IMG/VR virus record: IMGVR_UViG_2786546882_000003
Location: 36,063 to 100,062 of that record
Length of the DNA: 64,000 bases
DNA from: a virus
Taxonomy: Duplodnaviria; Caudoviricetes
Reading direction: 5' to 3' (one strand)
The notes under the pieces are model-generated. The model saw only the letters and a list, made by a program, of their open reading frames with translations. It did no database searches and was not told the DNA's origin. Below are positions 6,624-53,340 of this stretch, piece by piece (within the stretch, counting starts at the first letter, position 1; every line of letters begins with the position of its first letter). A program made the translations under genes and the position numbers.

Positions 6624-8075
6624 ATGTCGAGTATCACCCAACACTCTTTGTCGCGCGCTCGCCAACTAAGCGATGGGTATCTAGAAACCATCCATCGTAA
6701 ACGTGCTGATCGCTCGGGGTCTTCTGGCGGTGCTTACGAGCAAGTCAGCGGGATCGGTCTGTTTGGCCAGCGGTCGAATTTCTCCAATTCGCGGCAGTTC
6801 TATGACGCCTTTCGCGACACAGCGTTTACCGCGATCAGACCGGTCGCTACCCGCTTCGCCCAGCAGCCACTCCGTGTTGCCGTAACGCCACGCCGCTCGC
6901 AACGGACGAGTTTCAGCTCGATGGTGAAGTCGCTTCGCGGCGAAGGTTTCATCGGCAGCGGATTCGAGGGCCGGCAGAAGAGCTACCGGCGCGCCATGCC
7001 GGAGGCCATCAAGCAAATGCTGCCGCCTGACAGCATCGTTCTGGATGAGCACATCGTGACGGAGGCCTTCCGGCGCCCGAACATCTGGCACAGCGACTAC
7101 AGCACTTTGTACAGCGTCGCCGCATCGATGCTGTGTTGTGGTTCGGCTTTGATTACCTGGGACGAGGAAAACCTCTCGGCCGGCGAGAGCGGAGAAGAGT
7201 CCCCCTCCGTGTATTACATTCCAATGCACTGGGTGGAGCCCAAGGAGAACGTTCTCCAAGGCTGGACGATTACTCCGCCGCACACAGGCGAATCGTTTGA
7301 TGTCGAGCCTGGCGAATACGTTTACTTCCAGATGCCTGACCCCGGGGATCCATTCAACACCGTTTCGCCGATGCGAGCAGCTGCCCGCGCAATTAACACA
7401 GCGGACAAGATCCACGACGCCAACTACAACGGCCTCCAGAACCTAATCAATCCGAGCTACGCGATCGTCGCCGGCAAGATCGAGCAGCCTACCGGTGGCC
7501 AGGCCAGGCGGCCGGAACTTCGCGGCGAACAGCGCCGGAAGCTGACCGAGTTGATTAAACGGTATGCCGCCGGTGTCTTGCGGAACGGTGATCCGATCAT
7601 CCTCGATGGAATCATCGAAGACGTCAAACCACTCGGTACGGTGCAGCGCGACGTCGACTATTCCGGCGGCAATGCGATGACCGAGCGGAAGATCATGCAG
7701 GCCTTCGGTGTCAGCCCCGTGGTCGCCGGCTACGCAGAGAACGCGAACCGGGCGGGATCAAATGTTGCGCACGAAGTGTTCTACGACGTCGTTCTAAACC
7801 CACTGCTATTGCAAGCAGGCCGATCTCTCACGCATACGCTTGGTCCGAAATACTCTACGGATCAGTATCGTGTGACCGTCTACATGGAGTCAGCACAGGT
7901 TAACGACCCTGACTCAAAGCTTCGTCGCGTGGCGTTGTTCAAAGACCGATTGAGTGACCAGGAGGCTCGCCGCTTCATGCGGACAGGTGAGCTCGACATC
8001 GAGGATGAGGATAAGACATTTGAGCAAGAAAGGCAGCAACGCCAGCGCGAACAGAACAATCCAGTGGGAAGGTAA
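6624..8075 (+). CDS. portal protein, HK97 family
   Basis: Position after terL; PDPGDPFNTVSPMRAA, IMQAFGVSPVVAG..NANRA, FYDVVLNP. Confidence 0.88.
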   Translation: MSSITQHSLSRARQLSDGYLETIHRKRADRSGSSGGAYEQVSGIGLFGQRSNFSNSRQFYDAFRDTAFTAIRPVATRFAQQPLRVAVTPRRSQRTSFSSMVKSLRGEGFIGSGFEGRQKSYRRAMPEAIKQMLPPDSIVLDEHIVTEAFRRPNIWHSDYSTLYSVAASMLCCGSALITWDEENLSAGESGEESPSVYYIPMHWVEPKENVLQGWTITPPHTGESFDVEPGEYVYFQMPDPGDPFNTVSPMRAAARAINTADKIHDANYNGLQNLINPSYAIVAGKIEQPTGGQARRPELRGEQRRKLTELIKRYAAGVLRNGDPIILDGIIEDVKPLGTVQRDVDYSGGNAMTERKIMQAFGVSPVVAGYAENANRAGSNVAHEVFYDVVLNPLLLQAGRSLTHTLGPKYSTDQYRVTVYMESAQVNDPDSKLRRVALFKDRLSDQEARRFMRTGELDIEDEDKTFEQERQQRQREQNNPVGR

Positions 8076-37774: not shown

Positions 37775-37949
37775 CCGATCCGGCGAGTATCAGCAGCGGA
37801 AGAACCTCTCCGGCTATGACAGGATCAAATCTCCGGTCTTCCCTTCTTCCAGCTCCATACTTGAGCGAGTTGTGATGGTAACTAAACAGTATCCACGCAG
37901 CAACAATCGCAATAAAAAGCACGACAAGACGACGTACTAGGGCCATCAT
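37737..37949 (-). CDS. possible small two-TM membrane protein
   Basis: Two hydrophobic segments; fills the gap between the two large + strand genes. Confidence 0.3.
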   Translation of the reverse strand: MMALVRRLVVLFIAIVAAWILFSYHHNSLKYGAGRREDRRFDPVIAGEVLPLLILAGSAIYCLRADPEGS

Positions 37950-40900
37950 GGTTGATCTTCTCCGAGCTGCTAGGCTAGGCACTACGCCAGCCATCCAGGA
38001 CAACGAAAAAAAGCAGCAGCGACTAACTCCGATCAGGGCGGCTACTAACCGCGCTGAGCCAGATCAGTCTATCTTATCAAGTCTTGCTAGTACAGGCTTG
38101 AGTGGACTGGCGAAAGTCGGGAACTTTTTGGACCTTCCTGGTTCGGTCGTGCGCGATGTCAGCACCTGGCTCCCAGGCGGAATCGAAGCGCAGAATCCAG
38201 TCGATCAGTTTCTTTCCCCATTCACTTCAGAGAACCGTGTCTCCGGCGAAGACATGCTCCAGTCAGCAGGTCTTGCTGGCGAGAACACTTGGGGCGGATT
38301 GGCTGGTGGAATCGCAACCGAAATCGCGCTTGACCCTTTGACTTATTTGAGTTTTGGCGCGTCGGCTGTCGGAAAAGCTGGAACAGCCGCTGGCAAGGCT
38401 GGCCTCACTAAGAACGCCAAGTCGGTCGCGAACGAACTTGCTGGCCGAACTCTAGGCAAGGAGTCAGGCAAAAGGCTTGGTGCTACCAGCGCGAGGCAAA
38501 CGCTAACGCCGCGCAATCTGATTGACGCTGCTGCGGATCCAGCGGAAGCGATGAAGCGATTCAAGGTGGCTGGTGGCACTGATGCGATGCTCGATGAGAA
38601 GCTCGGTGGAGTTGCGAAGTTTTCTGTTCCATTCTTGTCGAAGCGATACGGAGATACTGTCCCCGCCCTGCGCGAACGAGTCCTGGGGACTACCGACCTG
38701 ACGCCTTCGCAGCTCGGCGCTAAGCCTTGGATGAAGGGTGGCGATGGCCCAAGCGGTCCCGATGCAGGTAGTGCCGCAAAGCCAAAGTCACCTCTGGATC
38801 CGAATGCTGACACTGGCCTGAAGAACCCGACGCCTGAAGAGTTCTCGGCTATCTCTCCGAACCACGCTCGGTTCAACCAAGAACTAGATGGTCTTCAACA
38901 GAGTGGTATTCTTGACGACGCTGACTCTGAGATCCTTCGCGGAATCTTTAGCCAATCAGACCTTGGCGGATTCGATCGAGTTTACTTCCGTCCAGTCAAA
39001 GAGATCTCGCCTGAGGCTACTCCCGAGATCGTGTCTGCATACGGCGCGAATGTTCCAGAAATTGGCGGTGCTGCAACAAAGACTCCCGATGGCGGATTTG
39101 ATATCCAGCTTTCTCAAAAGGCGCTGGCTGATGGAAACTACGTCGACACCGGAATTGACACTCTCGTTCATGAGATCGGCCATGCTTTTTTGGAGACAAC
39201 GAAGAAGCCACAGGGCGAGGCTGGCGTTGATGTTGTTTCTGAGTTCGACAATCTGATCAAAGACGGGACTCTCGGTCGATACTTCTCCGACAACTACGGC
39301 CCTGAGAAGGCAGCATACTTCGGACAAAATCCGCACGAGGCATTCGCTCAACTGTTCGCCGACTCGGTTATCAAGCGCAAGGGCCAAGAGATGCCCAAGC
39401 CAATCGAGTCATTCTTGGGCAAGGTGCGCAAGTTTGTTTCAGACATGCTCTCAAAGGTCCTTGGAAACAAGCAGCTGAGCGGTGAGGCAAGGCTGCGAAC
39501 CGATGCGATGATTGACTTGGTCGGAGGATTTATCGGTCCAGATCAATACAAGTCGATTATCGGAAAGGCTGACTCTGCATCGTCCAAACTGGATTTCTAC
39601 AAGCCAGCTACGAGAAAGATGCCTGGCATCGAGCCTGATGCCACTGGGATGTTCAGTCAAGTCGCCAGATCTCTTGACGCCATATTCCGCGAGTCGAGTT
39701 CGCTTCCTGCTGACCAGATGCTTGCTAGGCTGAGAAAAATGCCTGGAGTCAAAGAGGAGGAGATTGCTGACCTTGGTCTTGACAAGCTCAGTGGAAAGCG
39801 ACTCAGTCGAAATGACATCACTGACCACCTCAGCAAAAACATGCTCACCATGGAGGAGGCGATCAATACTGGAGACCGCGCTGGTTTCAGTGATCTTGCA
39901 GTTCCTGGTGGCGATGATGGAACTTACCGAGAACTTATCCTCAAGGCCAATGCAGGTGGAAAGCGAATTGAGGGCGGCGCCGATACTCACTGGATGGGCG
40001 ATGATTCGATTGCGCATATCCGGCTTGACGATGTTTCGCTTGCGAACGGAGAGAAGATTCTGCGAGTCAATGAGATCCAGAGCGATTGGATCCAGGGGCT
40101 GCGCAAGTTCGGAACGAAAACCGAAGATTTGCAAAGCGAAGCGAAGTCCATCAAGAAGGAAATGTCTGGCAACGCAGTTGAGCTTTTTCTCACAAGGCAG
40201 CAGATCAAACAGCTTGGAGAAAACGCACCCCCAGAGTTGCTTGCAAAAGAACAGTCATTGACTCAGAGTGTCGAGCAAGCAAGCTCTCGCATAACTCAGA
40301 TCGGAAAGATGCCAGCCGATGCCCCGATGAAGAAGTCGTGGGACAGCATGGCCATCAAAAAGATCTTCGACTATGCAGTCGCAAATGGGTATGACGGAGT
40401 TTCATTCGTCGACGGCCAGGATATCGCAAAGGTTGTTCAAGGTCCTGCTGATGCACTAAGTGGCTTCTATAACAAGGTTCAAACTCTCGCCGGAAAAATT
40501 GCAAAGAAATACGGAAGCGGAAAGGTATCGAACGAGAAGCTGGCCGGTCAATTCATCAACGACAGCGAGGAATTGCGCCGTGGTGTGACGTTCCCTGTCA
40601 CGGACGAGATGCGAAACACGATTGGCTCAGGTGGACAGCCGAGATACAAACCAGCGGAAAAAGTGGCCGAAGCCGCCAGCGCTGCTAAACAAGGAGCAAC
40701 TAAGGCGGCATCGTACGCAAACGACATGGCAAGGAGAGCGTTGTCGTCAGTCGGTGAGCTTGCGCTAGATAAAGATCTTGGTGCTGCTGTCGGCGCCACA
40801 ATGGACACTGTTGGAGGATTCTTCAAAAACTCTGCGCCAGTGAGATACCTTCGCGCCACCATCACCCCAGAGATGCTTGGCGCTTCAACCGAGCTTGGGC

Positions 40901-43746
40901 AGGAGATCGGCCAAAAGCGATTCGAGGCTTTGCAAGAGACGAAATATGAGATGCGGAAGCGAATGTTTCCGATCGCAAAGCAATTCCTCCAGAGCGAAGC
41001 ACTTGACTACGAAAAGCTCGTCGAAAAGCTTGGCGATGCGAAGAAGGCAAGAGGCGTTCTTAACACGAATTACCTGGAGGTGACTCGCTATCTTGAAGGT
41101 GGCACGGAACTTCTGGCTAAGGGCCAATCTCCAAAACTACCCGACGAACTGAAGCCGCTCATTCCTGCGATGGATGACATTCGCACTGCGCTGGATGAGA
41201 TCAGGCAGACCGAAATCAACAGCGGCCTCAAGTCTCCTCAGCTGGACGACATGTTCATCGACTACTTGCCTCGCCAGTTACAAGGGTTCCCGAACGACAA
41301 GTCGACTGGTTCTGGGAACTTAGGCAAGTTGTTTGAATTCGGAACTCCTTACCAGAAGCAACGCAAAGAATTTTTGCGAAATCTTCCAGGCGGAACATCC
41401 TCGATCAACAAACTGTCTCTTGATCCGCTTGTTTCGGGAATCGCCCATAGCTACCCTGGGTCTAAGATACCGGACGATGTCCTTCAGGAAGCAAAGAAGT
41501 ACCTGCGTGAATCATACGGCGGTGGTCAAGCAGGAAATAGAGAGCGAGATAGTATCTTCCATCTTGACATGGATGACAACAACAACGACTTGGATAAGCT
41601 TGCTCGGTGGATCACTGGTCTAGATCCAAGACATGCTGAACTCCAGGTTCCTGTATTCAAGCTTGATCCTGTTCAAAACGTGATGAACCGAATCGAATCT
41701 GGGCTTGCAGCGTCTTCGGCTGCTGATTTTACCACTGCGATGATTGCAAAAGCGGCTACCGAAGCTGGCGAAAATATATCAGATCCGAACTTGTACGATA
41801 TCCTGGTGGATAAGTTTGCAGTCGACGGCGCGGACGGCGACAAGATCAAGGAAATCGTCATCGGAAAGATGGGAGAAACCTTTCAGACTAAGCGTTTCGC
41901 GATGCAAGATGCTGCTGACAAGCTTGCGAGATCTCAGGTCGATGAATTGATTGCGAAATCGAATGTTACTGAAGATGGGATCTTGTTTGACGAGCCAGTC
42001 GTTGGTTCGATCGGTACAAGCAAGGCTAAGTTCCTCGGTGTCAAGGGTGATCAAGTTATCTATCAGTCTTCTGGCAAGAAAGGCTATGCTCCGCTTGACT
42101 CCATCGGTGGAAAAACTGTATCAGAAAACGATGTTCTCAAACAGTTTTCTATTCCTCAGCAACTGAGTGATGCGACATTCAGGTATCTCAAGGGGTTTAC
42201 TTCGCCTGAGGCACCCGATGCTATTCGCAAAGCACTGGGTCAAATCACTAGCCTATATAAGAGTCAGTTGACGATTCCTTGGCCAGCGTTCCATGTGCGC
42301 AACCTGCTGAGTGGTCAGTATGCAAACTGGCTGAACAACGCAACTGACCCTCGATATTCCGGTCCTCGCGCGATGGTCGAGCCGATTCGCGATGCGGACA
42401 GAGTTTTCAGAGGAGAATCCATACCTGACATCCTGAGCATTCCAGCGATTAAGGAGCTGGGGATAACCGATGAGTCTCAGGCTATGGAGTGGCTGCGCCA
42501 GGAGATCTTTGCAAACAAGCTTGTCGACTTTGGCCAAGGGATTTCAGCAGAGGCAGCTGCGAACAACTTGTCAGATATTCGCTCTCAGGTTGTCGGCCAA
42601 GTTCCGAAGAAGCGACGAGACATACTCGCTAAGTTGCCTCCGAGGCCGATTGGCGCATCGAAAGCGCAATCGTTCAATCCGTTGGCCGGAGCAGGAATCC
42701 TTGGTGCGACAGAGGATACATTTGGTCCGTATCGCTGGGGTCGGCAGGTTGGTGCATACACCGAGGGAATGAACCGCATTGCTCCTTTCATAGCATTTCT
42801 TCGGCAGGGGATGGACTCGCAAGAAGCTATGCGTCGAGTTCTTGCTGCACAGTTCGACTACAGCAAGATGACTCCGGCAGATCGTGACATCAAATTGTTG
42901 ATTCCGTTTTATGGATTTTCGCGAAACGTCCTGCCGTTCGTCGTCGGCAATCTTGTTCGCGATCCAGGCGGCGCGTTAGGGATGACAGTTCGCGCCACAA
43001 GAAACGCATCGGCAAGTCAGCCGTTGCCAGACTATCTTGCTGGCCAAACTGCAATCCCGTTTGGTACGCGAGGTGATGTGTCGGAGGGTAATTCGTCGTT
43101 CCTGACAGGATTTGGATTGCCGCACGAAGACACTCTTGGTCTGGCTGGTCTAGTAACAGGCGATCCAGCAGATGGCTTCAGGAATATTTTGTCTCGGATG
43201 AATCCGCTTGCCAAATCGCCGCTTGAATTGGCGTTTGGTGAGTCTACTTTCTTTGATGCCCCTGGAGGTGGGAGAGCACTGAAAGATCTTGATCCATTGG
43301 TTGGCCGTATTGGATCGAATATCAAAGACTTGGCGACTGGGTCTGATACCATGCGTGCTCAACCAGTCATGGGATCTCCATTACTAGAGCATGCGTTAGC
43401 TAACAGTCCGTTCAGCCGCGTCTTGACGACAGCGAGAACTATTACCGATCCAAGAAAGTGGAAGAACCCACTGAAACTTGGCCTCAATCTAGGCACAGGG
43501 ATGAGAGTGACCGACGTAAGCGAAAGCTCATGGGACGCAACAGTCAGCGACTTGATCTCAGAGAGAATGAGAGAGCTAGGCAGTCGCGATTTTGTCAGGA
43601 GCTATTTTCCGCAATATGCGCAAGAAGCAATGACAGACGAACAGCTTTCAGAAGCAAACTCACTGGAAGAGTTGATGAACTGGTTAGCGAATAGAGCTAA
43701 ACAGCGCAAGGCCGATCGAGAGGCTAAAGCCAATGCGCAAAACTAA
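37948..43746 (+). CDS. giant internal virion / polyvalent-type protein (1932 aa) with zincin domain
   Basis: TLVHEIGH...HEAFAQLF; GVKEEEIADLGL, YRELIL, AHIRL, RVNEIQSDW, DAPMKKSW; C-terminal PAFHVRN, FDYS, IPFYGF. Confidence 0.75.
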   Translation: MVDLLRAARLGTTPAIQDNEKKQQRLTPIRAATNRAEPDQSILSSLASTGLSGLAKVGNFLDLPGSVVRDVSTWLPGGIEAQNPVDQFLSPFTSENRVSGEDMLQSAGLAGENTWGGLAGGIATEIALDPLTYLSFGASAVGKAGTAAGKAGLTKNAKSVANELAGRTLGKESGKRLGATSARQTLTPRNLIDAAADPAEAMKRFKVAGGTDAMLDEKLGGVAKFSVPFLSKRYGDTVPALRERVLGTTDLTPSQLGAKPWMKGGDGPSGPDAGSAAKPKSPLDPNADTGLKNPTPEEFSAISPNHARFNQELDGLQQSGILDDADSEILRGIFSQSDLGGFDRVYFRPVKEISPEATPEIVSAYGANVPEIGGAATKTPDGGFDIQLSQKALADGNYVDTGIDTLVHEIGHAFLETTKKPQGEAGVDVVSEFDNLIKDGTLGRYFSDNYGPEKAAYFGQNPHEAFAQLFADSVIKRKGQEMPKPIESFLGKVRKFVSDMLSKVLGNKQLSGEARLRTDAMIDLVGGFIGPDQYKSIIGKADSASSKLDFYKPATRKMPGIEPDATGMFSQVARSLDAIFRESSSLPADQMLARLRKMPGVKEEEIADLGLDKLSGKRLSRNDITDHLSKNMLTMEEAINTGDRAGFSDLAVPGGDDGTYRELILKANAGGKRIEGGADTHWMGDDSIAHIRLDDVSLANGEKILRVNEIQSDWIQGLRKFGTKTEDLQSEAKSIKKEMSGNAVELFLTRQQIKQLGENAPPELLAKEQSLTQSVEQASSRITQIGKMPADAPMKKSWDSMAIKKIFDYAVANGYDGVSFVDGQDIAKVVQGPADALSGFYNKVQTLAGKIAKKYGSGKVSNEKLAGQFINDSEELRRGVTFPVTDEMRNTIGSGGQPRYKPAEKVAEAASAAKQGATKAASYANDMARRALSSVGELALDKDLGAAVGATMDTVGGFFKNSAPVRYLRATITPEMLGASTELGQEIGQKRFEALQETKYEMRKRMFPIAKQFLQSEALDYEKLVEKLGDAKKARGVLNTNYLEVTRYLEGGTELLAKGQSPKLPDELKPLIPAMDDIRTALDEIRQTEINSGLKSPQLDDMFIDYLPRQLQGFPNDKSTGSGNLGKLFEFGTPYQKQRKEFLRNLPGGTSSINKLSLDPLVSGIAHSYPGSKIPDDVLQEAKKYLRESYGGGQAGNRERDSIFHLDMDDNNNDLDKLARWITGLDPRHAELQVPVFKLDPVQNVMNRIESGLAASSAADFTTAMIAKAATEAGENISDPNLYDILVDKFAVDGADGDKIKEIVIGKMGETFQTKRFAMQDAADKLARSQVDELIAKSNVTEDGILFDEPVVGSIGTSKAKFLGVKGDQVIYQSSGKKGYAPLDSIGGKTVSENDVLKQFSIPQQLSDATFRYLKGFTSPEAPDAIRKALGQITSLYKSQLTIPWPAFHVRNLLSGQYANWLNNATDPRYSGPRAMVEPIRDADRVFRGESIPDILSIPAIKELGITDESQAMEWLRQEIFANKLVDFGQGISAEAAANNLSDIRSQVVGQVPKKRRDILAKLPPRPIGASKAQSFNPLAGAGILGATEDTFGPYRWGRQVGAYTEGMNRIAPFIAFLRQGMDSQEAMRRVLAAQFDYSKMTPADRDIKLLIPFYGFSRNVLPFVVGNLVRDPGGALGMTVRATRNASASQPLPDYLAGQTAIPFGTRGDVSEGNSSFLTGFGLPHEDTLGLAGLVTGDPADGFRNILSRMNPLAKSPLELAFGESTFFDAPGGGRALKDLDPLVGRIGSNIKDLATGSDTMRAQPVMGSPLLEHALANSPFSRVLTTARTITDPRKWKNPLKLGLNLGTGMRVTDVSESSWDATVSDLISERMRELGSRDFVRSYFPQYAQEAMTDEQLSEANSLEELMNWLANRAKQRKADREAKANAQN

Positions 43747-43910
43747 CATCCTCCAGCTCGAACACAAATCTGTCTACGAATGTTTTCAATCTTGTCCGGT
43801 GCAGCAGCAGGTCAGCACTAGCGCCTCCGCAGTATACTCCCTGCATGGCACTTCGCATTCCTATGAACTGATGCTTGGATAGTCGAAGCGTTGACATGAG
43901 TGGAGACATT

Positions 43911-44002
43911 AAAAACCTTGACTTATCTTACCATGTCGTACCATAACGTAACCCAACCCAACGGAACATGCTTTAACTTAACAAAGCAAAACTCGCGTTA
44001 AC
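43911..44002 (-). ncRNA. pentamer guide unit E (17 triplet+NN repeats, tail GTCAAGGTTTTT)
   Basis: - strand: gttAA cgcGA gttTT gctTT gttAA gttAA agcAT gttCC gttGG gttGG gttAC gttAT ggtAC gacAT ggtAA gatAA gtcAA ggttttt. Confidence 0.8.
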
Positions 44003-44010
44003 CGGCGATA

Positions 44011-44490
44011 CTACTTATTGAAAAGACTAAGTGTCTCTCCAATAGAAATCTCACTTGTAGACTTCTGGACCTTTGTTGCGATCTTTTTCGCAGATGTCTT
44101 CTTTGAAAACAGCGATATAGCTCCCATCTGCGCCGAAGCTACCACATGCTGTCTCTTGTAATCTTCCGGAAGAGAGTCGAACTTAACGACACTCAGTTTG
44201 TCGAGAGTCCTTTTTGACGCCCGAAGTATCCTAACTCTGTCGCTTTCGGTTGTGTCGACAATCTCCTCGTCATCGAGTCGCTTTAGCCCAACCCCTCGCT
44301 CTACCCCGAAGACAATACCACATTCGAGCAGTAAGCTTCGCCTCGCCGTGACTAGCGATGAAGATGCATGCTTACGCACGTCCCGGCCAATGGCCGTGCT
44401 AATTTCATCGTATGTTATTAACTGACCGACACTGGCAGCTTTGAGCATAGACTCAATAATTCGAGTGTCGGATGATTTTTCGTGGATCAT
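44011..44490 (-). CDS. accessory protein of the RAMP/pentamer locus, winged-helix-like N-terminus
   Basis: GQLITYDEISTAIGRDV...VFGVERGVGLKRL; embedded between units D and E. Confidence 0.65.
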   Translation of the reverse strand: MIHEKSSDTRIIESMLKAASVGQLITYDEISTAIGRDVRKHASSSLVTARRSLLLECGIVFGVERGVGLKRLDDEEIVDTTESDRVRILRASKRTLDKLSVVKFDSLPEDYKRQHVVASAQMGAISLFSKKTSAKKIATKVQKSTSEISIGETLSLFNK

Positions 44491-44523
44491 GGTGCATCTT
44501 CATCCTGAAAGGATCGTTATCCG

Positions 44524-44616
44524 AAAAAACCTTGACTTGTCTTGGCGCACTGCAACCAAACGAAACATAACGCAACAGGACCAAACAAAACGAGCCCTAA
44601 CGAAACGCAATGCGTT
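44524..44616 (-). ncRNA. pentamer guide unit D
   Basis: - strand: aacGC attGC gttTC gttAG ggcTC gttTT gttTG gtcCT gttGC gttAT gttTC gttTG gttGC agtGC gccAA gacAA gtcAA ggtttttt. Confidence 0.78.
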
Positions 44617-44621
44617 GAAAT

Positions 44622-44704
44622 AAAAAACCTTGACTTGTCTTACCAAAGCGCAACTCAACTCAACGAAACCAAACCCAACCTGACCCAACGAAACTAAACG
44701 CGAC
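44622..44704 (-). ncRNA. pentamer guide unit C
   Basis: - strand: gtcGC gttTA gttTC gttGG gtcAG gttGG gttTG gttTC gttGA gttGA gttGC gctTT ggtAA gacAA gtcAA ggtttttt. Confidence 0.8.
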
Positions 44705-44725
44705 TAATTGTATTGTTGTTGTGTT

Positions 44726-44813
44726 AAAAAGCCTTGACTTACCTCTCCGTGTCACAACGCAACTCACTCCAACGCAACCATACTCAGCACAACGCATCTA
44801 AACACAACGAGAA
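44726..44813 (-). ncRNA. pentamer guide unit B
   Basis: - strand: ttcTC gttGT gttTA gatGC gttGT gctGA gtaTG gttGC gttGG agtGA gttGC gttGT gacAC ggaGA ggtAA gtcAA ggcttttt. Confidence 0.78.
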
Positions 44814-44825
44814 TCAGTGCCAAGA

Positions 44826-45383
44826 CTAAACCCAGTCAACATCCTCAACGGAAAATCGACCGTAATAGCCGTTGTTTCTTGGGCGGAATCTGCCAACTCC
44901 GATGAACGAACCGGCGTCACGAAGGTGCTCAGTGAATACGTCTTTCGTGATAATCTCGTCAAGCACTAGGAACTCAACGACACCATCCCAATTCTGAACA
45001 AGCGGAAAGCACTTCTCTACTCGCTTGCTTCCTCCGCGCCGACCGTCGCTTGGAACGTGCAGCCATTCTCCGTGGATGTCGTCGATCTTTGTGTCAAGAA
45101 CGAGCGGCTCGACCACAAGAATCCCGGCTTCAAAGTGCTTTGTAAATGTTGACTTTCCTTTGCCTGGGATCTGGATTGATTTGTACTTTGCGGCTTCGGC
45201 CAGGCAGTTCTTAAAGCACATTGGTGGAATGAACAAATTGCCTTCTTTTGTAACGTGGCAGCGTTCTTTCCACACTCGCTTTTCAAAGTCTGCGTGAGTC
45301 TCGTCGCGACTCTTTTCGGACTGAATGAATCGGCCTTGGGAGTACGGGCTTGCACTCTTCAGGCGGCAGATTGCTTTCTTCAC
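44826..45383 (-). CDS. stand-alone RAMP/Cas7-like RNA-binding protein (Vipr-like), 185 aa
   Basis: N-terminal strand ICRLKSASPY, FIPPMCFKNCLAEAA (RAMP yiPg.s.Kg.l motif), C-terminal Gly-rich loop AGSFIGVGRFRPRNNGYYGRFSV; GTG start inferred. Confidence 0.75.
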   Translation of the reverse strand: MKKAICRLKSASPYSQGRFIQSEKSRDETHADFEKRVWKERCHVTKEGNLFIPPMCFKNCLAEAAKYKSIQIPGKGKSTFTKHFEAGILVVEPLVLDTKIDDIHGEWLHVPSDGRRGGSKRVEKCFPLVQNWDGVVEFLVLDEIITKDVFTEHLRDAGSFIGVGRFRPRNNGYYGRFSVEDVDWV

Positions 45384-45463
45384 AGGTATTCTCGCATCTT
45401 CAAGTATCACAGCAGACGAAAGGCACTGCTGACTGCCTTTGTGCTCATGCACATGACAAGACA

Positions 45464-45491
45464 ATCATACCCAAGTTGCGGAAGACGTCAA
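45464..45491 (-). promoter_or_regulatory. sigma70-type promoter of the RAMP gene
   Basis: - strand TTGACG, 16 nt, TATGAT. Confidence 0.7.
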
Positions 45492-45502
45492 CCAAAATCC
45501 AC

Positions 45503-45532
45503 AAAAAAATCCCAGGCTTGGGACCTGGGATT
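45503..45532 (-). terminator. intrinsic terminator after guide unit A
   Basis: - strand AATCCCAGG-loop-CCTGGGATT then TTTTT. Confidence 0.75.
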
Positions 45533-45624
45533 AAAAACCATGACATACCGTGACAGAACTCATCGTACTTTAACACAACGCATCTTGACGTATCAGGACG
45601 TGCTACGCCGTACGTCGACGTGTT
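45533..45624 (-). ncRNA. pentamer guide unit A
   Basis: - strand: aacAC gtcGA cgtAC ggcGT agcAC gtcCT gatAC gtcAA gatGC gttGT gttAA agtAC gatGA gttCT gtcAC ggtAT gtcAT ggttttt. Confidence 0.75.
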
Positions 45625-45628
45625 GATC

Positions 45629-45682
45629 AAAAAACCCAGCGCCGCAAGCTAGGAGGGTGGCATTGTGCCCGCGGCGCTGGGG
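45629..45682 (-). terminator. terminator-like hairpin after the 45697-46203 gene
   Basis: - strand CCCAGCGCCGC...GCGGCGCTGGG then TTTTTT, with a long loop. Confidence 0.55.
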
Positions 45683-45696
45683 TGCTGGTTGAATCG

Positions 45697-46203
45697 CTAT
45701 GCGCTGTAGTCAGGCAGCGCTTCGCAGACCTCGTAAAGAAACTCGACGGTCACGAGACCGCCAGCAGTGAATTTCTCGTCCGATGCAGTTCCACCAGTCT
45801 GGCAAGTGTAGAGCGATACTGTCGTTTCACTTGCAATGACTGCATGCGCAATCATGCTTGTGACTTTCGTATTCGCTGTCAGCGCAGACGTGAGCCCGTA
45901 AAGATCTGGATCTGCGGCAGTTCCAACTCCGATTTTTGCGAAATTGTCTGACCCGGAGCCGTCGCCGGTTACAGCCGTGTCGATTCGAGCACGAACTGCC
46001 TTGACAACAGCCCCCGCTGGAAGAGTATTTGTCAAGTCGACCTTGAGCGAGTTTGTCAATGTGACTTGCTCGCTGAAAGACACCAAGTCTGTGATGTCTT
46101 GCTCGACCTCAACCTCTTCCAAGATCTCCTTGATCTCGTCCGCAGCTGCCTTGTTGCCAAGCGCCGTCTGTAGGGACCGCACGGTCCCGCTCTTCAGTGT
46201 CAT
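45697..46203 (-). CDS. virion-type beta-sandwich protein (capsid decoration-like)
   Basis: TLPAGAVVKAV....TAVT, IGVGTAADPDLY, FTAGGLVTVEFLY pattern. Confidence 0.55.
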   Translation of the reverse strand: MTLKSGTVRSLQTALGNKAAADEIKEILEEVEVEQDITDLVSFSEQVTLTNSLKVDLTNTLPAGAVVKAVRARIDTAVTGDGSGSDNFAKIGVGTAADPDLYGLTSALTANTKVTSMIAHAVIASETTVSLYTCQTGGTASDEKFTAGGLVTVEFLYEVCEALPDYSA

Positions 46204-46733
46204 AAATCCTCGTCTCCTTCAAATCGCGGCATCTGCGCCGCTAAAGCACCTTCGATATCTGGGCCACGCCACCCAGGTGGTTTCCTTACTTTTCCGTTCT
46301 CGTCTTTGTGGGCGCCGGGGCCAAACTTTCGGTCGTTTGCGTCACACACTTCCAGCGTCGGAAGAAAGTCGCTTACTCCCATCGCAAGAAGCATCCAGTG
46401 GCAGACGTATTGGGTATCAATGCAGCCGTCAGTTGATTCCTTCAGGCTGAACTGGCTATCGGCCAAGTTGATCAGATCGAGCTTTCCGGCGTCGTTGAAT
46501 CCGATCTTAAACCCAAGAGCCTCGATAGTTTCCCTTGCCTCTTCAAGGATCAGCGAAGCACCCAAGCGTCTGACATCAGCCCCCGGATCTCCGGGGAATG
46601 GCAAGACTGGCTGGTTTCCTTGATCCATAAAAGCAAGAACTCGCTTGGCCACATCGCTCTTGCTGCAAGGAGCAGACGATTTGATAAATTCGCGGTATTC
46701 ATCCTGCGCCTTAATCTGTTCTTCGCTAAGCAT
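46200..46733 (-). CDS. MazG-like / PRA-PH NTP pyrophosphohydrolase
   Basis: LILEEARE, DGCIDTQYV, EVCDANDRK, GKVRKPPGW. Confidence 0.8.
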   Translation of the reverse strand: MLSEEQIKAQDEYREFIKSSAPCSKSDVAKRVLAFMDQGNQPVLPFPGDPGADVRRLGASLILEEARETIEALGFKIGFNDAGKLDLINLADSQFSLKESTDGCIDTQYVCHWMLLAMGVSDFLPTLEVCDANDRKFGPGAHKDENGKVRKPPGWRGPDIEGALAAQMPRFEGDEDL

Positions 46734-47247
46734 TGAGTGCGTCCCTGCAAGTGATAGCTACGGCAAGTGCCTGCCAAACGTGACTTGAGATTCCGTACAG
46801 CGGGCCTTGGTTTTTCTTTGTTCCAACCTGCGGTACTTTTCCACCACCAGTTGGTTCGTACATGTCGATTATGGCCTGACGGACGTTCGAGTCGCCTGCT
46901 CTGCTGTTCTTGCAAATATGTAGCAAGATAGCCGGTATCCCCTCAGAATCCTGCTTTCGGTAGAGTAGCTTTGCAGGTGTGCCAGAAGAGCCAAGTTCAT
47001 AAGCCTCCTGGAATCTCCCAATCCAGCGTACCGTCTCGAACGTGGATGATCCGACAGCGAGCCCATAACTGGCCACCATTTCGATTGCTAGCTCTGATTC
47101 GCCAAAGTACCGATCACGAATCATCTGCAGCAAATCTTCGTTCGCGCAGTATCCGTGCTCGATTACTTCCGTTCCGTCGATCCAAGCCCAGGCGCTTTGC
47201 CAAGTACCTGGATCAACACCAACGACTCTCGGTCCAATCCTTGACAC
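46726..47247 (-). CDS. RuvC-like Holliday junction resolvase
   Basis: VVGVDPG, LAIEMVASYG, FETVRWIGRF, HVWQALAVA; GTG start inferred. Confidence 0.8.
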   Translation of the reverse strand: MSRIGPRVVGVDPGTWQSAWAWIDGTEVIEHGYCANEDLLQMIRDRYFGESELAIEMVASYGLAVGSSTFETVRWIGRFQEAYELGSSGTPAKLLYRKQDSEGIPAILLHICKNSRAGDSNVRQAIIDMYEPTGGGKVPQVGTKKNQGPLYGISSHVWQALAVAITCRDALNA

Positions 47248-47257
47248 AAATGGCTTC

Positions 47258-47677
47258 CTAGAAAGGAATGTCGTCAGCAGTTTCGTAACTTGAACTGCTT
47301 TGCTGCTGCTGTCGTGGCTTTCCGTTCGACTGGGCGCCACTGCCATCGCCCTTGCCGCCAAGCATCTGCATCTTGTCGCCGATGACACTCAGCTTGGATC
47401 GCTTCTGGCCATCAGATTCCCACTGGTCAAGTTTGAGACGCCCTTCAACAAGGATGTTCGATCCCTTCTGCAGGTATTCGCCGCACACTTCAGCCGTTCG
47501 CCCAAAGAACGTCACGTCGACAAATGTCGTTTCATCTGTCCACTCGCCGTTCTTCTTAACGCGATCATTTACCGCGAGACCAAGCGTTGTGATCGCAGTT
47601 CCGCTTTGCGCGTACTTGATCTCGATGTCTCGCGTGACGTTTCCGGCGAGAATAACTCTGTTGAATGACGCTGCCAT
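47258..47677 (-). CDS. ssb: single-stranded DNA-binding protein
   Basis: FNRVILAGNVTRD, YLQKGSNILVEGRL, C-terminal DDIPF. Confidence 0.95.
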   Translation of the reverse strand: MAASFNRVILAGNVTRDIEIKYAQSGTAITTLGLAVNDRVKKNGEWTDETTFVDVTFFGRTAEVCGEYLQKGSNILVEGRLKLDQWESDGQKRSKLSVIGDKMQMLGGKGDGSGAQSNGKPRQQQQSSSSYETADDIPF

Positions 47678-48315
47678 TACGCAACTGCCTCTTCTTCTGG
47701 GGTGCTGATTCCAACAGCCTCAAGAACCTTGACTTCCAGTTCGTGAAGCGTTCCACTGTTCTCGATCTTGCAGTCAGCCATCTGGGCAACTGCCATCTTT
47801 TCGCTAGCGTGACTGACGTTCGTATCGATTCGTGGATTCTCTACCCACAAGATGATCCCACCCAGCGACTTGATGTACTCACCTTCGTTCGGAAAACGAA
47901 CATCGCTAATCACGAAGCAAGGTGGAGGCATCTTCGCAGCCTTCGCAAACTGCTCAAGATCCTGAATCTTCTTGTCAACTTGCTTGATCCAGCAGTCGGC
48001 GCCGAACATGTTCCGGCAAACCTCAGTGCCGAAATACTGCAAGTGATGACGAACATCTTCGGACTTCTTCGCCTCATCCCAGCCAACTGCGTCAACAAGT
48101 TTGCTGAGACGATTGAGCCAGGTAATTGGGACATCAGGATCGTTTGTGATCCCGTTGCTGCCCTGCCTGGCAACGACAATCGGGTCGAGCTTTAGAAGCC
48201 CATCTCTGACAGAGTCCGCAAAAGCAAGCTTTGTGTACCCTCTCTCAACCAGGAAAGACGCGGCAGTATCTTTGCCGTGCCTCATCTTCCCGCATATACC
48301 TACTAAATTTGCCAC
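47677..48315 (-). CDS. deoxynucleoside monophosphate kinase
   Basis: GICGKMRHGKDT, LAFADSVR, RHHLQYFGTE, ISDVRFPNE, HASE. Confidence 0.9.
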   Translation of the reverse strand: MANLVGICGKMRHGKDTAASFLVERGYTKLAFADSVRDGLLKLDPIVVARQGSNGITNDPDVPITWLNRLSKLVDAVGWDEAKKSEDVRHHLQYFGTEVCRNMFGADCWIKQVDKKIQDLEQFAKAAKMPPPCFVISDVRFPNEGEYIKSLGGIILWVENPRIDTNVSHASEKMAVAQMADCKIENSGTLHELEVKVLEAVGISTPEEEAVA

Positions 48316-48392
48316 CGCTATCCTCCGGGTGCGTTTGGAGAAATTACATTCGCCAGATTCTACGTCCGGTTGCGAAACTTGTCAACCAGAAT

Positions 48393-49502
48393 TTAATCGC
48401 AAAAAACTTCGCGAACGTCAACAGCGCCTGGCCGGTCCCGGTCAATCACGATGAATGTCTGCGATGGATGCGAGAAAGCAGCCTTCACTCGGCGCTGTGC
48501 GTAGGCGTTGTACCCAATCAAGCAATTGCAGCTGACGAACTTCGGGTGGCGAAGGAATTGGTGCCAATGGCCGAAGACATCCAGGTCGCTCTTTAGGCCA
48601 TCGTCCCAGTTGCGGATTGCCTTCAGGACAGGAATGGTGATCCCCCCTACCCCGCCGTTGTATCGAATCTCGTCTCCGTGGTGGAAGCGAACTCGCTTGC
48701 CTTCGATGTTGGCGAGATTGAAGTAGGAGTTCACAACGTGCCATTTGACTTTTGGCTCGTTGCGATAGTCCTTCTCCATCCACTTGTAAAGCAGCCACTC
48801 GTAGCTCTGCTTATGCGCCGTGGAGACGCGAGGCTTCTGGGAGATTCTCCCGTGGTTTCCAGCCGACGTGTAAATGTCGACCTGCTCAACCCCAGTCTCC
48901 TTCACGATCGTATCAATCGCCGAGTGCAAGTGATCACGAGCGAACATCAGCGCCTCGGTTGGCGACAGGTAGTTCGATTCCTTCTGATCGTCGTGGAGGT
49001 GGCCGGTGATCATGTCACCGAGGACCGGAATCGCAATCCGATGGATGTTTGAGATCGACCGGACAGAATCCAGCAGCAGCAAGAACCGCTGTACGCATTT
49101 TTCAACACGCTTCGCAGCAATGTCCAGGTTGAACTCGTTAAGACCGTTGATCGTTGACGGATCTACCTGTTCTTCGCAGTGCCAGTCAGTCAAGACCAAC
49201 ATTGCAGTTGCGTCTCCACCGGAGTAACTCGGCTCTGGCTCATAGGTCTCGTACATCTCTGGAGTGGAAGAATCCAAAGACTCCAGGACTTCTGATTGGG
49301 CGAGAAGCAACTCGACATCGTCTTCAAGCTGTTTGCGCTGCGCTCTCTCGGTCGTCAGTTCTCTGTAGTAGCTCTTGGCCTTTTTCTCGGCATCAAGGGC
49401 GCGACGAAGGAACAGTGCTGGCTCCACGCTGTTTGGGGGCATGGCTGCCAAGTCAGTGAGCGGGACCTGTGAAAGCAAGTCTGCTGGGGGTGCATCGGTC
49501 AT
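48393..49502 (-). CDS. calcineurin-like metallophosphoesterase
   Basis: LTDWH, LGDMITG, AGNHGR, FHHGD, FGHWH. Confidence 0.85.
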   Translation of the reverse strand: MTDAPPADLLSQVPLTDLAAMPPNSVEPALFLRRALDAEKKAKSYYRELTTERAQRKQLEDDVELLLAQSEVLESLDSSTPEMYETYEPEPSYSGGDATAMLVLTDWHCEEQVDPSTINGLNEFNLDIAAKRVEKCVQRFLLLLDSVRSISNIHRIAIPVLGDMITGHLHDDQKESNYLSPTEALMFARDHLHSAIDTIVKETGVEQVDIYTSAGNHGRISQKPRVSTAHKQSYEWLLYKWMEKDYRNEPKVKWHVVNSYFNLANIEGKRVRFHHGDEIRYNGGVGGITIPVLKAIRNWDDGLKSDLDVFGHWHQFLRHPKFVSCNCLIGYNAYAQRRVKAAFSHPSQTFIVIDRDRPGAVDVREVFCD

Positions 49503-49681
49503 CGCTGGGGGCCTTTGAGATAGCGCGTGAAACGATCGAAGGTGAATGTCAGACCCATGCGAGCCTTGGCGGCTTCGTACAGGAACCTCCGAGAGTGATG
49601 AGAAAGCTTTCCGGTGTGGTAGTCACTTAGAAAACTGTCCCATTCTTTCTTCTTAGCGCCACTCAATTCGCTGACTTTCAT
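49499..49681 (-). CDS. small hypothetical protein
   Basis: MKVSELSGAKKKEWD..., GGAGAG RBS, ATGA coupling. Confidence 0.5.
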   Translation of the reverse strand: MKVSELSGAKKKEWDSFLSDYHTGKLSHHSRRFLYEAAKARMGLTFTFDRFTRYLKGPQR

Positions 49682-49761
49682 CGGCCTTCTCTCTCCGTGA
49701 AAAGGAAAAGGGCGTCCCTGCCCAAGAGAAGAGAGCGTCATGCTCTGGGGTGGTGGTCTCT

Positions 49762-50106
49762 CTACACGCCTTGAAGGACGTGCTTCCTCTCGATGGTTAG
49801 TTTACCGAGAGATGGGTGGTCGACGACATCGAGCTCTTCAGTGGCCAGGAACGATCGAGTAAACGAATCTCCAGGGCGACCTGAGTAGAACGGCGTGACG
49901 AGGATATTGACTTCTGCGCCTTCATTGGCTGCAAATCCAAACCCGCTGCTAGCCGCAGGGATCTTTTGAGTTGAGACCCGGCTTCCGTCCGAGTAAACCT
50001 CAATCTGCCAGGAGTCCAGATCAGCGCCGCAGCAATCTCCACCGCAGCACTGGTTAATCTCTTGTCTGAAGTAAAGGATTTCAGTGTCTTGCACGCTTGC
50101 CTCCAT
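49762..50106 (-). CDS. hypothetical protein (beta-sandwich-like)
   Basis: GAGGA RBS; 114 aa. Confidence 0.5.
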   Translation of the reverse strand: MEASVQDTEILYFRQEINQCCGGDCCGADLDSWQIEVYSDGSRVSTQKIPAASSGFGFAANEGAEVNILVTPFYSGRPGDSFTRSFLATEELDVVDHPSLGKLTIERKHVLQGV

Positions 50107-53226: not shown

Positions 53227-53280
53227 GCTAGGTCCTCCACAATCTATATGCGCAAACCTGATCGTCCGTGAACGAATGTG

Positions 53281-53340
53281 AGAAGATTTGGGAAGATGTG
53301 GGAAAATATGAGAAGATGTGAGAAAACTTGAGAAAATCTG
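53281..53340. repeat. six tandem 10-bp direct repeats, consensus RGAARAYNTG
   Basis: agaagatttg ggaagatgtg ggaaaatatg agaagatgtg agaaaacttg agaaaatctg. Confidence 0.85.

What the first reader, a model, noticed from the sequence alone, without database searches (positions are those of the whole stretch)
43911..45624. Phage RAMP/Cas7-like gene with five pentamer-coded guide units: a candidate gapped-code RNA-guided (VIPR-like) system with a GTY scaffold
Seen: a 185-aa - strand gene (44826-45383) with RAMP-type motifs (FIPPMCFKNCL and the terminal Gly-rich loop GVGRFRPRNNGYYGRF), and no other cas gene or classical CRISPR array. Around it are five non-coding units on the same strand (43911-44002, 44524-44616, 44622-44704, 44726-44813, 45533-45624). 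Each has 15-17 in-register pentamers, a semi-fixed triplet (mostly GTT/GTC, sometimes GGT, GAY, AGY) plus a variable dinucleotide, and ends in GTCA(A/T)GG(C)TTTTT. Known: Cas7/RAMP proteins polymerise along guide RNA with fixed periodicity. From memory, unverified, recently reported phage VIPR systems use GGY/NN repeats; the triplet here is mainly GTY, so this may be a distinct subtype. Inference: each protomer binds one triplet and presents NN for pairing with a target read as NN-skip-NN.
Basis: partly seen in the sequence, partly recalled or inferred. Interest (0 to 1): 0.97.

Follow-up and report, generated by a model that had tools for sequence, protein, structure and literature searches.

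The report
Phage VIPR locus with G-U-Y guides
A marine phage carries a genuine VIPR system (a small Cas7-like protein, a winged-helix helper gene and five guide-RNA genes built of five-base repeats), a CRISPR-like kind first published in 2026, so it is a new example with an unusual repeat spelling and not a new kind of system.

Summary
Five strand-locked tracts of 15-17 pentamers (G 91%, U 64%, Y 97%, then two variable bases), each ending in the GTCA(A/T)GG-plus-T-run tail, are the only such tracts in the 64-kb window, and they flank a 185-aa gene.

VIPR systems were published in 2026 preprints, non-canonical triplets included, and this scan already holds hundreds of VIPR notes on other DNA.

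The "GTY subtype" idea is not supported. GTY, GGY and GAY spellings are scattered among close relatives, and all share the same G-loop.

New here:
- Metatranscriptome contigs cover exactly the three-unit array.
- Under the 1-nt skip rule only, the guides match the phage's own portal, giant-protein and 168-aa genes better than any control. This suggests rival relatives as targets, but no perfect target was found.

The parts
44826..45383 (-). vipr gene: 185-aa single-RRM RAMP protein (G-loop residues 162-176, thumb hairpin about 104-129)
45464..45491 (-). sigma-70-like promoter (TTGACG, 16 nt, TATGAT) ahead of vipr
   Evidence: Consensus scan, 10 of 12 matches. This is a prediction only.
45533..45624 (-). 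vrRNA-like unit u5 (upstream, the most degenerate): 16 pentamers, tail GGTAT-GTCAT-GG plus U-run
   Evidence: G1 13/16, U2 8/16, Y3 16/16.
45508..45532 (-). hairpin terminator directly after u5
   Evidence: Terminator scan: 10-pair stem followed by a T-run. A fold of 45500-45624 has z -2.3, driven by this hairpin.
44726..44813 (-). vrRNA-like unit u4, which begins shortly after the vipr stop codon
   Evidence: Covered by RNA-library contigs of X5, X6 and X8; the X8 contig bridges from vipr into u4.
44622..44704 (-). vrRNA-like unit u3
   Evidence: G1 15/15, U2 12/15, Y3 15/15. Covered by the RNA-library contigs of X5 and X6.
44524..44616 (-). vrRNA-like unit u2
   Evidence: The X5 contig ends at 44527, inside this unit's U-run.
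44011..44490 (-). vap1-type accessory gene: 159 aa, N-terminal winged helix followed by long helices
   Evidence: A homologue lies beside vipr on the same strand in 28 of 46 viral loci. AF2 pLDDT is 90.1 with an H-S-H-H-S-S winged-helix order. Foldseek gives only weak matches, to GntR, MarR and PadR regulators. hhalign to the gene after vipr in phage LESphi2 gives 94.4%, E 9e-8. That gene matches SUSP1 vap1 at E 2e-14. The direct comparison to SUSP1 vap1 gives only 64%.
43911..44002 (-). vrRNA-like unit u1, downstream of the accessory gene
   Evidence: 17 pentamers, Y3 17/17.
41365..41406 (+). best partial match of guide u1 under the 1-nt skip rule (22 of 28 bases), in frame inside the 1932-aa gene. 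Probably the phage's own mismatched version of a rival's target site.
   Evidence: Top hit on the 100-kb contig; 0 of 300 permuted guides reach it. Alignment.
43002..43037 (-). best partial match of guide u3 (18 of 24 bases), antisense in the 1932-aa gene
   Evidence: Weak on its own: 30 of 300 permutations reach it.
46024..46074 (-). best partial match of guide u5 (23 of 34 bases), in frame in the 168-aa gene 45697-46203
   Evidence: 13 of 300 permutations reach it.

Best explanation
This is a VIPR (Viral Interference Programmable Repeat) system of a marine phage, built like the type II system of Escherichia phage SUSP1. It has a vipr gene, a vap1-type winged-helix accessory gene and five guide-RNA (vrRNA) genes: one upstream of vipr, three in a row directly after it, and one after the accessory gene.

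Most likely mechanism:
- The units are transcribed on the vipr strand, partly as a read-through precursor from the vipr promoter.
- Vipr protomers polymerise along each RNA, one per pentamer. They hold G1 and Y3 tightly and the middle base loosely; here it is mostly U.
- About 12-14 variable dinucleotides are left exposed.
- Two or three constant xxxAA pentamers, GG and a U-run form the 3' end.
- The filament binds double-stranded DNA whose sequence reads NN-x-NN-x and silences it. The accessory DNA-binding protein enhances the effect.
- The likely targets are rival relatives of the phage, at their versions of the portal, giant-protein and 168-aa genes. The phage's own copies are protected by mismatches.

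Shown here: the fold and homology of the protein, the anatomy and statistics of the units, their conservation beside homologues, the accessory-gene homology, and the presence of the array in RNA libraries.

Inferred from the SUSP1 work: one protomer per pentamer, the gapped pairing, and silencing.

Inferred from partial matches only: the identity of the targets.
For: Protein:
- The only PDB sequence hit is 'SUSP1 Vipr protein' 36pp_D.
- The family profile aligns with SUSP1 Vipr over its whole length, 98.6%, E 1e-15.

RNA units:
- They are the only five period-5 tracts in the window, all on the vipr strand, with G1 91%, Y3 97% and variable NN.
- They share a common tail.
- They fold no better than shuffles, as expected of a protein-bound single strand.
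- They match no Rfam family.

Architecture: one unit upstream and three downstream, as in SUSP1.

Conservation: 123 of 130 loci with a homologue have pentamer units on the same strand. Their 3' end follows a shared pattern.

Accessory gene.

Phage context: MazG, RuvC, SSB, dNMP kinase and exonuclease genes and a portal gene.

RNA libraries: a 292-nt contig at 44527-44818 with no differences spans exactly u2-u4. A second contig ends at 44819. A third bridges vipr into u4.

Skip rule and targets:
- The summed best matches on the phage's own contig are 102 of 148 under the 1-nt skip rule, against 93.6 +/- 1.6 for permuted guides (0 of 400 reach it).
- Skip 0 and skip 2 stay within their nulls.
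- Reversed guides give 96, swapped 92 and backwards 93. Real guides on 30 random 100-kb chunks of the rest of the assembly give 92-98.

Published mechanism: bioRxiv 10.64898/2026.04.26.720920 and .720927.
Against: - No perfect or near-perfect target was found in any collection reached: the MAG, 202 genomes of the same family, IMG/VR exact-pattern scans, and 126 related loci.
- The RNA evidence is from assembled contigs of one study. DNA carry-over is not excluded, and contig ends cannot be read as RNA ends.
- The 3' tail shows no fold like the pseudoknot described for the SUSP1 clade.
- The SUSP1 residues that read G1 and G2 (D177, R138, W178) are replaced here by R165, F126 and F166. How the scaffold is recognised in detail is therefore not known for this clade.
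- No promoter was predicted for the single units.
Confidence: 0.86

Rival explanations
1. One reading: the G-U-Y scaffold defines a distinct VIPR subtype whose protein has a recognition pocket of its own for U at the second position.
For: In this locus U is the commonest middle base, 64%. Thirteen to fourteen related loci also use GTC or GTT. The SUSP1 residues that hold G2 (R138, W178) are replaced by F126 and F166. GTY is not named in the text of any of the four papers read.
Against: The F126/F166/R165 set and the whole G-loop are shared by GGC, GGT, GAC and GTY members alike. No alignment column separates U-type from G-type or A-type members. On the tree GTC needs 8 changes for 10 rows and GTT 3 for 3, and this protein's nearest relatives use GGC, GAT and GGT. 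Non-canonical triplets such as GAC/NN are already in print.
Confidence: 0.07
2. The pentamer tracts act as DNA rather than as guide RNAs. They would be iteron-like binding sites for the winged-helix protein, for example in replication or regulation of the neighbouring DNA-metabolism genes.
For: The tracts surround a winged-helix gene and lie next to a replication and repair module. RNA contigs cannot exclude DNA carry-over.
Against: The tracts are strictly strand-locked to vipr, with a U-run at one end only. They travel with vipr homologues in 123 of 130 loci, while the winged-helix gene was found in only 28 of 46. In SUSP1 the equivalent tracts are shown to be RNAs that co-purify with Vipr. 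In the RNA library the deepest and longest contig coincides with the non-coding array.
Confidence: 0.03
3. A decaying or repurposed VIPR locus. The guides have drifted and no longer have targets, or they serve as decoys that occupy a rival's Vipr, as described for solo vrRNAs.
For: No perfect target was found anywhere. Unit u5 is degenerate, with U2 in 8 of 16 pentamers. Solo and decoy vrRNAs are described in bioRxiv 10.64898/2026.10.15.759431.
Against: The vipr and vap genes are intact and typical of their families. G1 and Y3 are kept at 91% and 97%. The guides carry a skip-1-specific signal toward phage genes. The databases hold no relative of this phage at all, so missing targets are expected.
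Confidence: 0.04

Closest known systems
Type II VIPR of Escherichia phage SUSP1 (KT454805.2: Vipr ALH47069.1, vap1 ALH47068.1, four vrRNAs; PDB 36pp; bioRxiv 10.64898/2026.04.26.720920 and .720927)
   Same: Homologous Vipr protein over its whole length. A small accessory gene right beside vipr. One guide unit upstream and three in a row downstream. Units of about 90-100 nt made of pentamers with a fixed triplet and variable NN. Phage-borne. Neither locus has a CRISPR array or other cas genes.
   Different: The triplet is G-U-Y (U 64%) instead of GGU. The 3' end is two or three xxxAA pentamers, GG and a U-run, with no sign of the SUSP1 pseudoknot tail. G-loop and thumb contacts differ: D177/W178/R138 of SUSP1 are R165/F166/F126 here. 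The G-loop carries a 4-residue NNGY insertion. The accessory gene here is separated from vipr by three guide units. The accessory protein is related only through an intermediate.
VIPR of Pseudomonas phage LESphi2 (OQ594955.1, genes P21_9 and P21_8), which I presume belongs to the published Pseudomonas fulva prophage clade
   Same: Vipr is 28% identical over 157 aa, tblastn E 7e-9. The accessory protein is homologous, hhalign 94.4%. Pentamer arrays lie beside vipr on the same strand.
   Different: LESphi2 uses GGC units, all three upstream of vipr. It sits next to the cI/cro region of a temperate phage.
Non-canonical VIPR arrays reported in bioRxiv 10.64898/2026.10.21.760802 (GAC/NN, CAC/NN, WGT/NN, TGH/NN; 21 clusters, 6,318 sequences)
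   Same: Five-base repeats with a fixed triplet other than GGY, next to a Vipr-fold protein. GAC and AGT spellings also occur among this protein's relatives.
   Different: GTY is not named in that paper's text; its figure S10A could not be read. That work did not relate spellings to protein phylogeny.
Cas7 backbone subunits of class 1 CRISPR effectors (Csm3 of type III-A, Cas7 of type VII)
   Different: No repeat-spacer array and no Cas5, Cas6, Cas10 or small-subunit genes nearby. Sequence identity is 5-21%. Guide periodicity is 5 nt with 3 bases hidden, against 6 nt with 1 flipped. The target is dsDNA read with gaps.

Membership tests
VIPR system | Sequence homology to an experimentally characterised Vipr | tested here: met
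   PDB 36pp_D SUSP1 Vipr is the only hit, E 6e-4. hhalign 98.6%, E 1e-15, over 169 columns.
VIPR system | vrRNA genes: tandem 5-nt repeats in which a fixed trinucleotide (GGY or a related consensus) alternates with hypervariable NN, about 9-16 repeats, beside vipr on its strand | tested here: met
   Five units of 15-17 pentamers with G1 91%, Y3 97% and NN variable. The triplet is G-U-Y and not the canonical GGY. Both census papers accept other consensus triplets.
VIPR system | Constant 3' extension (tail) after the repeat tract | tested here: met
   The tail is shared by all five units. A clade-wide pattern of xxxAA pentamers, GG and a U-rich run is seen. The pseudoknot described for the SUSP1 clade is not seen; the paper gives that as a feature of the clade and not of the family.
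VIPR system | Minimal locus: vipr plus a vap accessory gene, with no CRISPR array and no other cas genes | tested here: met
   A vap1-type gene is present. Neighbours are phage DNA-metabolism genes. The repeat finders show no repeat-spacer array. The rest of the contig was not screened for cas genes with profiles.
VIPR system | Homologues elsewhere keep the pentamer units beside the gene | tested here: met
   123 of 130 loci.
VIPR system | Units are expressed as discrete small RNAs that co-purify with Vipr | tested here: inconclusive
   Contigs from marine metatranscriptome libraries cover exactly the u2-u4 array with no differences. They are contigs from one study and DNA carry-over is not excluded. 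Binding cannot be tested with these tools.
VIPR system | DNA recognition by the NN dinucleotides with one skipped base | tested here: inconclusive
   Own-contig matches exceed every control only under the 1-nt skip rule. No full-length target was found.
Class 1 CRISPR-Cas effector | Repeat-spacer CRISPR array and further cas genes (Cas5, Cas6, large and small subunits) beside the Cas7-like gene | tested here: not met
   No such array in 40000-50000 or in the window. The flanking genes are vap1-type, MazG, RuvC, SSB, a kinase and an exonuclease.

The most novel reading that the evidence does not exclude
The guides are aimed at rival relatives of the same phage. Read in the gapped code, they spell diverged versions of the phage's own portal, giant virion-protein and 168-aa genes, while its own copies escape through a few mismatches. 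This would be a kin-discriminating exclusion weapon.

In this Vipr clade the middle scaffold base is not read by the protein. It therefore drifts freely between G, A and U from phage to phage while staying uniform within one genome. The effective scaffold code would then be G-N-Y rather than GGY.
Probability: 0.35. Interest if true: 0.5.

Novelty: new member of a known kind. Interest (0 to 1): 0.33.

Why it matters
The locus adds a clean, intact environmental example to a family that is only months old in the literature. Three points are testable.

1. In a large Vipr clade only G1 and Y3 of the scaffold are strict. The middle base switches among G, A and U between close relatives without any matching change in the protein. 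This bears on how freely synthetic vrRNAs can be designed.

2. The one scaffold change that does track the protein is C-G-C, which goes with a Phe-to-Tyr change at the thumb position equivalent to SUSP1 R138. This points to a specificity determinant that could be swapped at the bench.

3. The guides carry a signal, specific to the 1-nt skip rule, toward the phage's own structural genes. This fits the published picture of VIPR as a weapon between related viruses and gives concrete sites to look for in marine metagenomes.

None of this changes the standing of VIPR itself.

Tried and rejected
Target searches that gave nothing usable:
- Guides against the whole 3.56-Mb assembly at skips 0-3: no hit above permuted guides. 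The only perfect hits were the loci themselves at skip 3.
- 279 guides from all related loci against 0.8 Mb of those loci: no enrichment for skip 1.
- Exact 12-dinucleotide patterns of u1 and u3 in IMG/VR: 0 matches.
- u2 with up to 3 mismatches in 202 genomes of the host's family: one hit in G125, where about 0.2 are expected by chance (my own estimate).

Relatives of the phage were sought so that orthologous sites could be checked, and none was found:
- a fragment of the giant gene in IMG/VR;
- the giant gene and the 168-aa gene in the INPHARED phages;
- both genes among the fetched loci;
- the 202 family genomes;
- the 5.8-billion protein set, long proteins only.

Near-identical copies of the phage could therefore not be fetched, although the accessory protein is on record on 31 contigs.

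Ideas dropped:
- I first thought the replacements D177R, W178F and R138F explain U at the second position. These residues are shared by the GGC, GAC and GTY members alike.
It does in 4 of 5 best sites, but 47% of permuted guides do the same, so this carries no weight.
- Pfam and PHROGs give no family for the giant protein, the 168-aa protein or the accessory protein.
- Foldseek of the accessory model found nothing below E 0.018.
- The Foldseek PDB copy does not hold the Vipr structures, so no direct structural superposition with SUSP1 Vipr was possible.
- Parts of 43800-45700 without RNA-library contigs say nothing about expression.
Full report
**Observation**

Read on the - strand, the stretch 43911-45624 holds five non-coding tracts. 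Each resolves into in-register pentamers of the form G-T-T/C plus two variable bases.
- A scan of both strands of the whole window for 'GT' recurring at period 5 finds exactly five clusters. The + strand never exceeds 6, and shuffles reach 6-7.
- Anchored on the tail, the units hold 15-17 pentamers, 78 in all. G is at position 1 in 91%. Position 2 is T 64%, G 19%, A 12%, C 5%. Position 3 is a pyrimidine in 97%. Positions 4-5 are variable.
- The tail motif is present in all five units, and the repeat finder returns them as one five-member family.
- The 185-aa ORF at 44826-45383 and its quoted motifs are real.

**The protein**
- Pfam has no model for it. PHROGs gives only an unnamed family.
- A search of PDB sequences returns a single hit, 'SUSP1 Vipr protein' (36pp_D, E 6e-4).
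- tblastn against isolated phages hits the same gene in SUSP1 and its Felix-O1-like relatives, and more fully a gene of Pseudomonas phage LESphi2.
- The family is large: over 3,100 clusters at 90% identity and 1,106 clusters at 50% identity.
- A profile of 74 members aligns with SUSP1 Vipr over 169 columns at 98.6% probability, E 1e-15.

It is therefore a RAMP-fold protein and, more precisely, a Vipr.

**What is known**

The library holds four 2026 preprints.
- The discovery paper defines VIPR as a phage-borne Vipr protein plus vrRNAs of 9-16 pentamers (GGY alternating with NN) followed by a constant tail. DNA is read by the NN with one skipped base, and the outcome is transcriptional silencing of competing elements. 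It describes seven types and vap accessory genes, and notes 'related consensus' repeats.
- The structural paper shows one protomer per repeat. In SUSP1, G1 is read by H17 and D177, G2 by R138 and W178, and Y3 by a narrow pocket.
- A third paper shows competition with a satellite and describes solo guides.
- A fourth reports 21 clusters of non-canonical triplets such as GAC/NN, CAC/NN, WGT/NN and TGH/NN next to Vipr-fold proteins.

GTY is not named in the text of any of them, and the relevant figures could not be read. The SUSP1 locus itself shows the same layout as here: one unit upstream of vipr, then vipr, vap1 and three units.

**Relatives**

I fetched 46 loci from IMG/VR, 80 from metagenomes and 6 from MAGs of several phyla.
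- Of 130 loci examined (the 46 IMG/VR and 80 metagenome loci, the three phage records and this contig), 123 have at least one pentamer unit on the vipr strand.
- The units share an end pattern: two or three pentamers with NN = AA, then GG and a U-rich run.
- The commonest triplet per locus is GGC in 62, CGC in 14, GAC in 12, GTC in 10, GGT in 7, GTT in 4 and AGT in 2.
- Pooled over G-x-Y pentamers, the middle base is G 2,428, A 782, T 609 and C 74. Within a locus the commonest middle base has a median share of 0.85.
- On a quick maximum-likelihood tree the GTT, GTC, GAC and GGT spellings are scattered. GTC needs 8 changes for 10 rows. This protein's nearest relatives use GGC, GAT and GGT.
- All members, whatever their spelling, share the G-loop and have Phe at the position of SUSP1 R138. 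The exception is the C-G-C group, where all 11 distinct proteins have Tyr.

G-U-Y is therefore a lineage-level spelling inside one Vipr clade and not a subtype with its own protein. My first idea, that the D177R, W178F and R138F replacements explain U at the second position, fails for the same reason.

**Accessory gene**
- The 159-aa gene at 44011-44490 has homologues beside vipr on the same strand in 28 of 46 viral loci.
- Its model (pLDDT 90) begins with a winged helix and continues in long helices. Structural matches are weak and all to winged-helix regulators.
- Its profile matches the gene that follows vipr in phage LESphi2 at 94.4%, E 9e-8. That gene matches SUSP1 vap1 by BLASTP at E 2e-14.
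- The direct comparison with SUSP1 vap1 gives only 64%.

I read it as a vap1-type gene by transitive homology, which places the locus nearest to type II.

**Expression**
- Four marine metatranscriptome runs of one study hold parts of the stretch.
- Laid on it, one run gives a single 292-nt contig at 44527-44818 with no differences. That is the u2-u4 array, from 7 nt after the vipr stop codon to inside the U-run of u2.
- A second run of the same sample gives a contig at 44634-44819.
- A third gives a contig that bridges the 3' end of vipr into u4, and a fourth a piece of the accessory gene.
- This fits transcription of the array, in part by read-through from the predicted promoter at 45491-45464. 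These are contigs, however, so DNA carry-over is not excluded and contig ends are not RNA ends.
- The units fold no better than shuffled sequence (z -0.2 to -0.7). Only u5 is followed by a real hairpin terminator. Rfam has nothing.

**Targets**
- The window lies on a 100,062-bp contig of a 3.56-Mb, 165-contig assembly. The contig carries phage genes.
- No target stands out in the assembly, in 202 genomes of the same family, in IMG/VR by exact pattern or among related loci.
- On the phage's own contig, the best matches of the five guides under the 1-nt skip rule sum to 102 of 148 bases. Permuted guides give 93.6 +/- 1.6; none of 400 reaches 102 and the maximum is 98.
- Skip 0 (94) and skip 2 (92) sit inside their nulls.
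- Reversed, swapped and backwards guides give 96, 92 and 93. The real guides on 30 random 100-kb chunks of the rest of the assembly give 92-98.
- The best sites are in the 1932-aa gene (u1 at 41365, u2 at 40746, u3 at 43002), the 168-aa gene (u5 at 46024) and the portal gene (u4 at 7083).
- u1 alone is beyond all 300 permutations. Three of its four mismatched codons would be conservative replacements.
- I read this as indirect support for the gapped code in this spelling, and as a hint that the real targets are rival relatives' versions of these genes.

**Verdict**

This is a genuine, intact VIPR system of type II-like build in a marine phage.
- It is the same as the published systems in protein family, locus plan, guide anatomy and presumed mechanism.
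- It differs in the spelling of the scaffold (G-U-Y), in a short unstructured tail, and in the residues at the scaffold contacts.

The kind has been in print since April 2026, non-canonical spellings since October 2026, and this scan already holds 369 VIPR notes in at least 269 genomes. It is a new member of a known kind, of moderate to low interest. The lability of the middle base, the Phe/Tyr covariation with C-G-C, and the skip-1-specific self-similar matches are the points worth passing on.

Noticed in passing
related loci L008, L010, L011, L014, L015, L044, L045, L047, L048, L068, L073, L090, L105 (Vipr residue aligned with window protein F126): Among distinct proteins, all 11 from loci whose units are spelled C-G-C have Tyr at the thumb position equivalent to SUSP1 R138, and all 72 of this clade with G-x-Y units have Phe. 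This is the only clean protein-scaffold covariation seen. The C-G-C rows form at least two or three clades.
   Followed up: partly
related loci L004-L129, pooled pentamers: In G-x-Y pentamers of this Vipr clade the middle base is G 2,428, A 782, T 609 but C only 74. C seems to be avoided while the other three are tolerated.
   Followed up: no
window 37948-43746 (+): A 1932-aa ORF next to the VIPR locus has no Pfam or PHROG family and no relative in any collection searched. Three of the five guides have their best partial match inside it.
   Followed up: partly
window 44818-44819: RNA-library contigs of two runs (one sample) both end here, 7-8 nt after the vipr stop codon and 5-6 nt before the first pentamer of u4. 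This could be a processing site or a start, or an assembly accident.
   Followed up: no
window 47722-47734 (-): A copy of the vrRNA tail motif with one mismatch (AGTCAAGGTTCTT) lies inside the dNMP kinase gene, with no pentamer tract beside it. Probably chance.
   Followed up: no
window 53275-53337: Tandem repeat of period 10 (unit AATGTGAGAA, 6.3 copies; also read as period 20), unrelated to the pentamer units.
   Followed up: no
contig C155 of G000 (window = 36063-100062 of it): The 100-kb phage contig is the longest of the assembly. It has 54.5% G+C against 57.7% for the whole assembly and no terminal repeat. It may be a phage binned with the MAG rather than a prophage, so the host is not established.
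   Followed up: partly
L008 2225-2985 and L011 210-970: Seven C-G-C-type units stand head to tail upstream of vipr. This shows that arrays in this clade can expand well beyond the three seen here.
   Followed up: no
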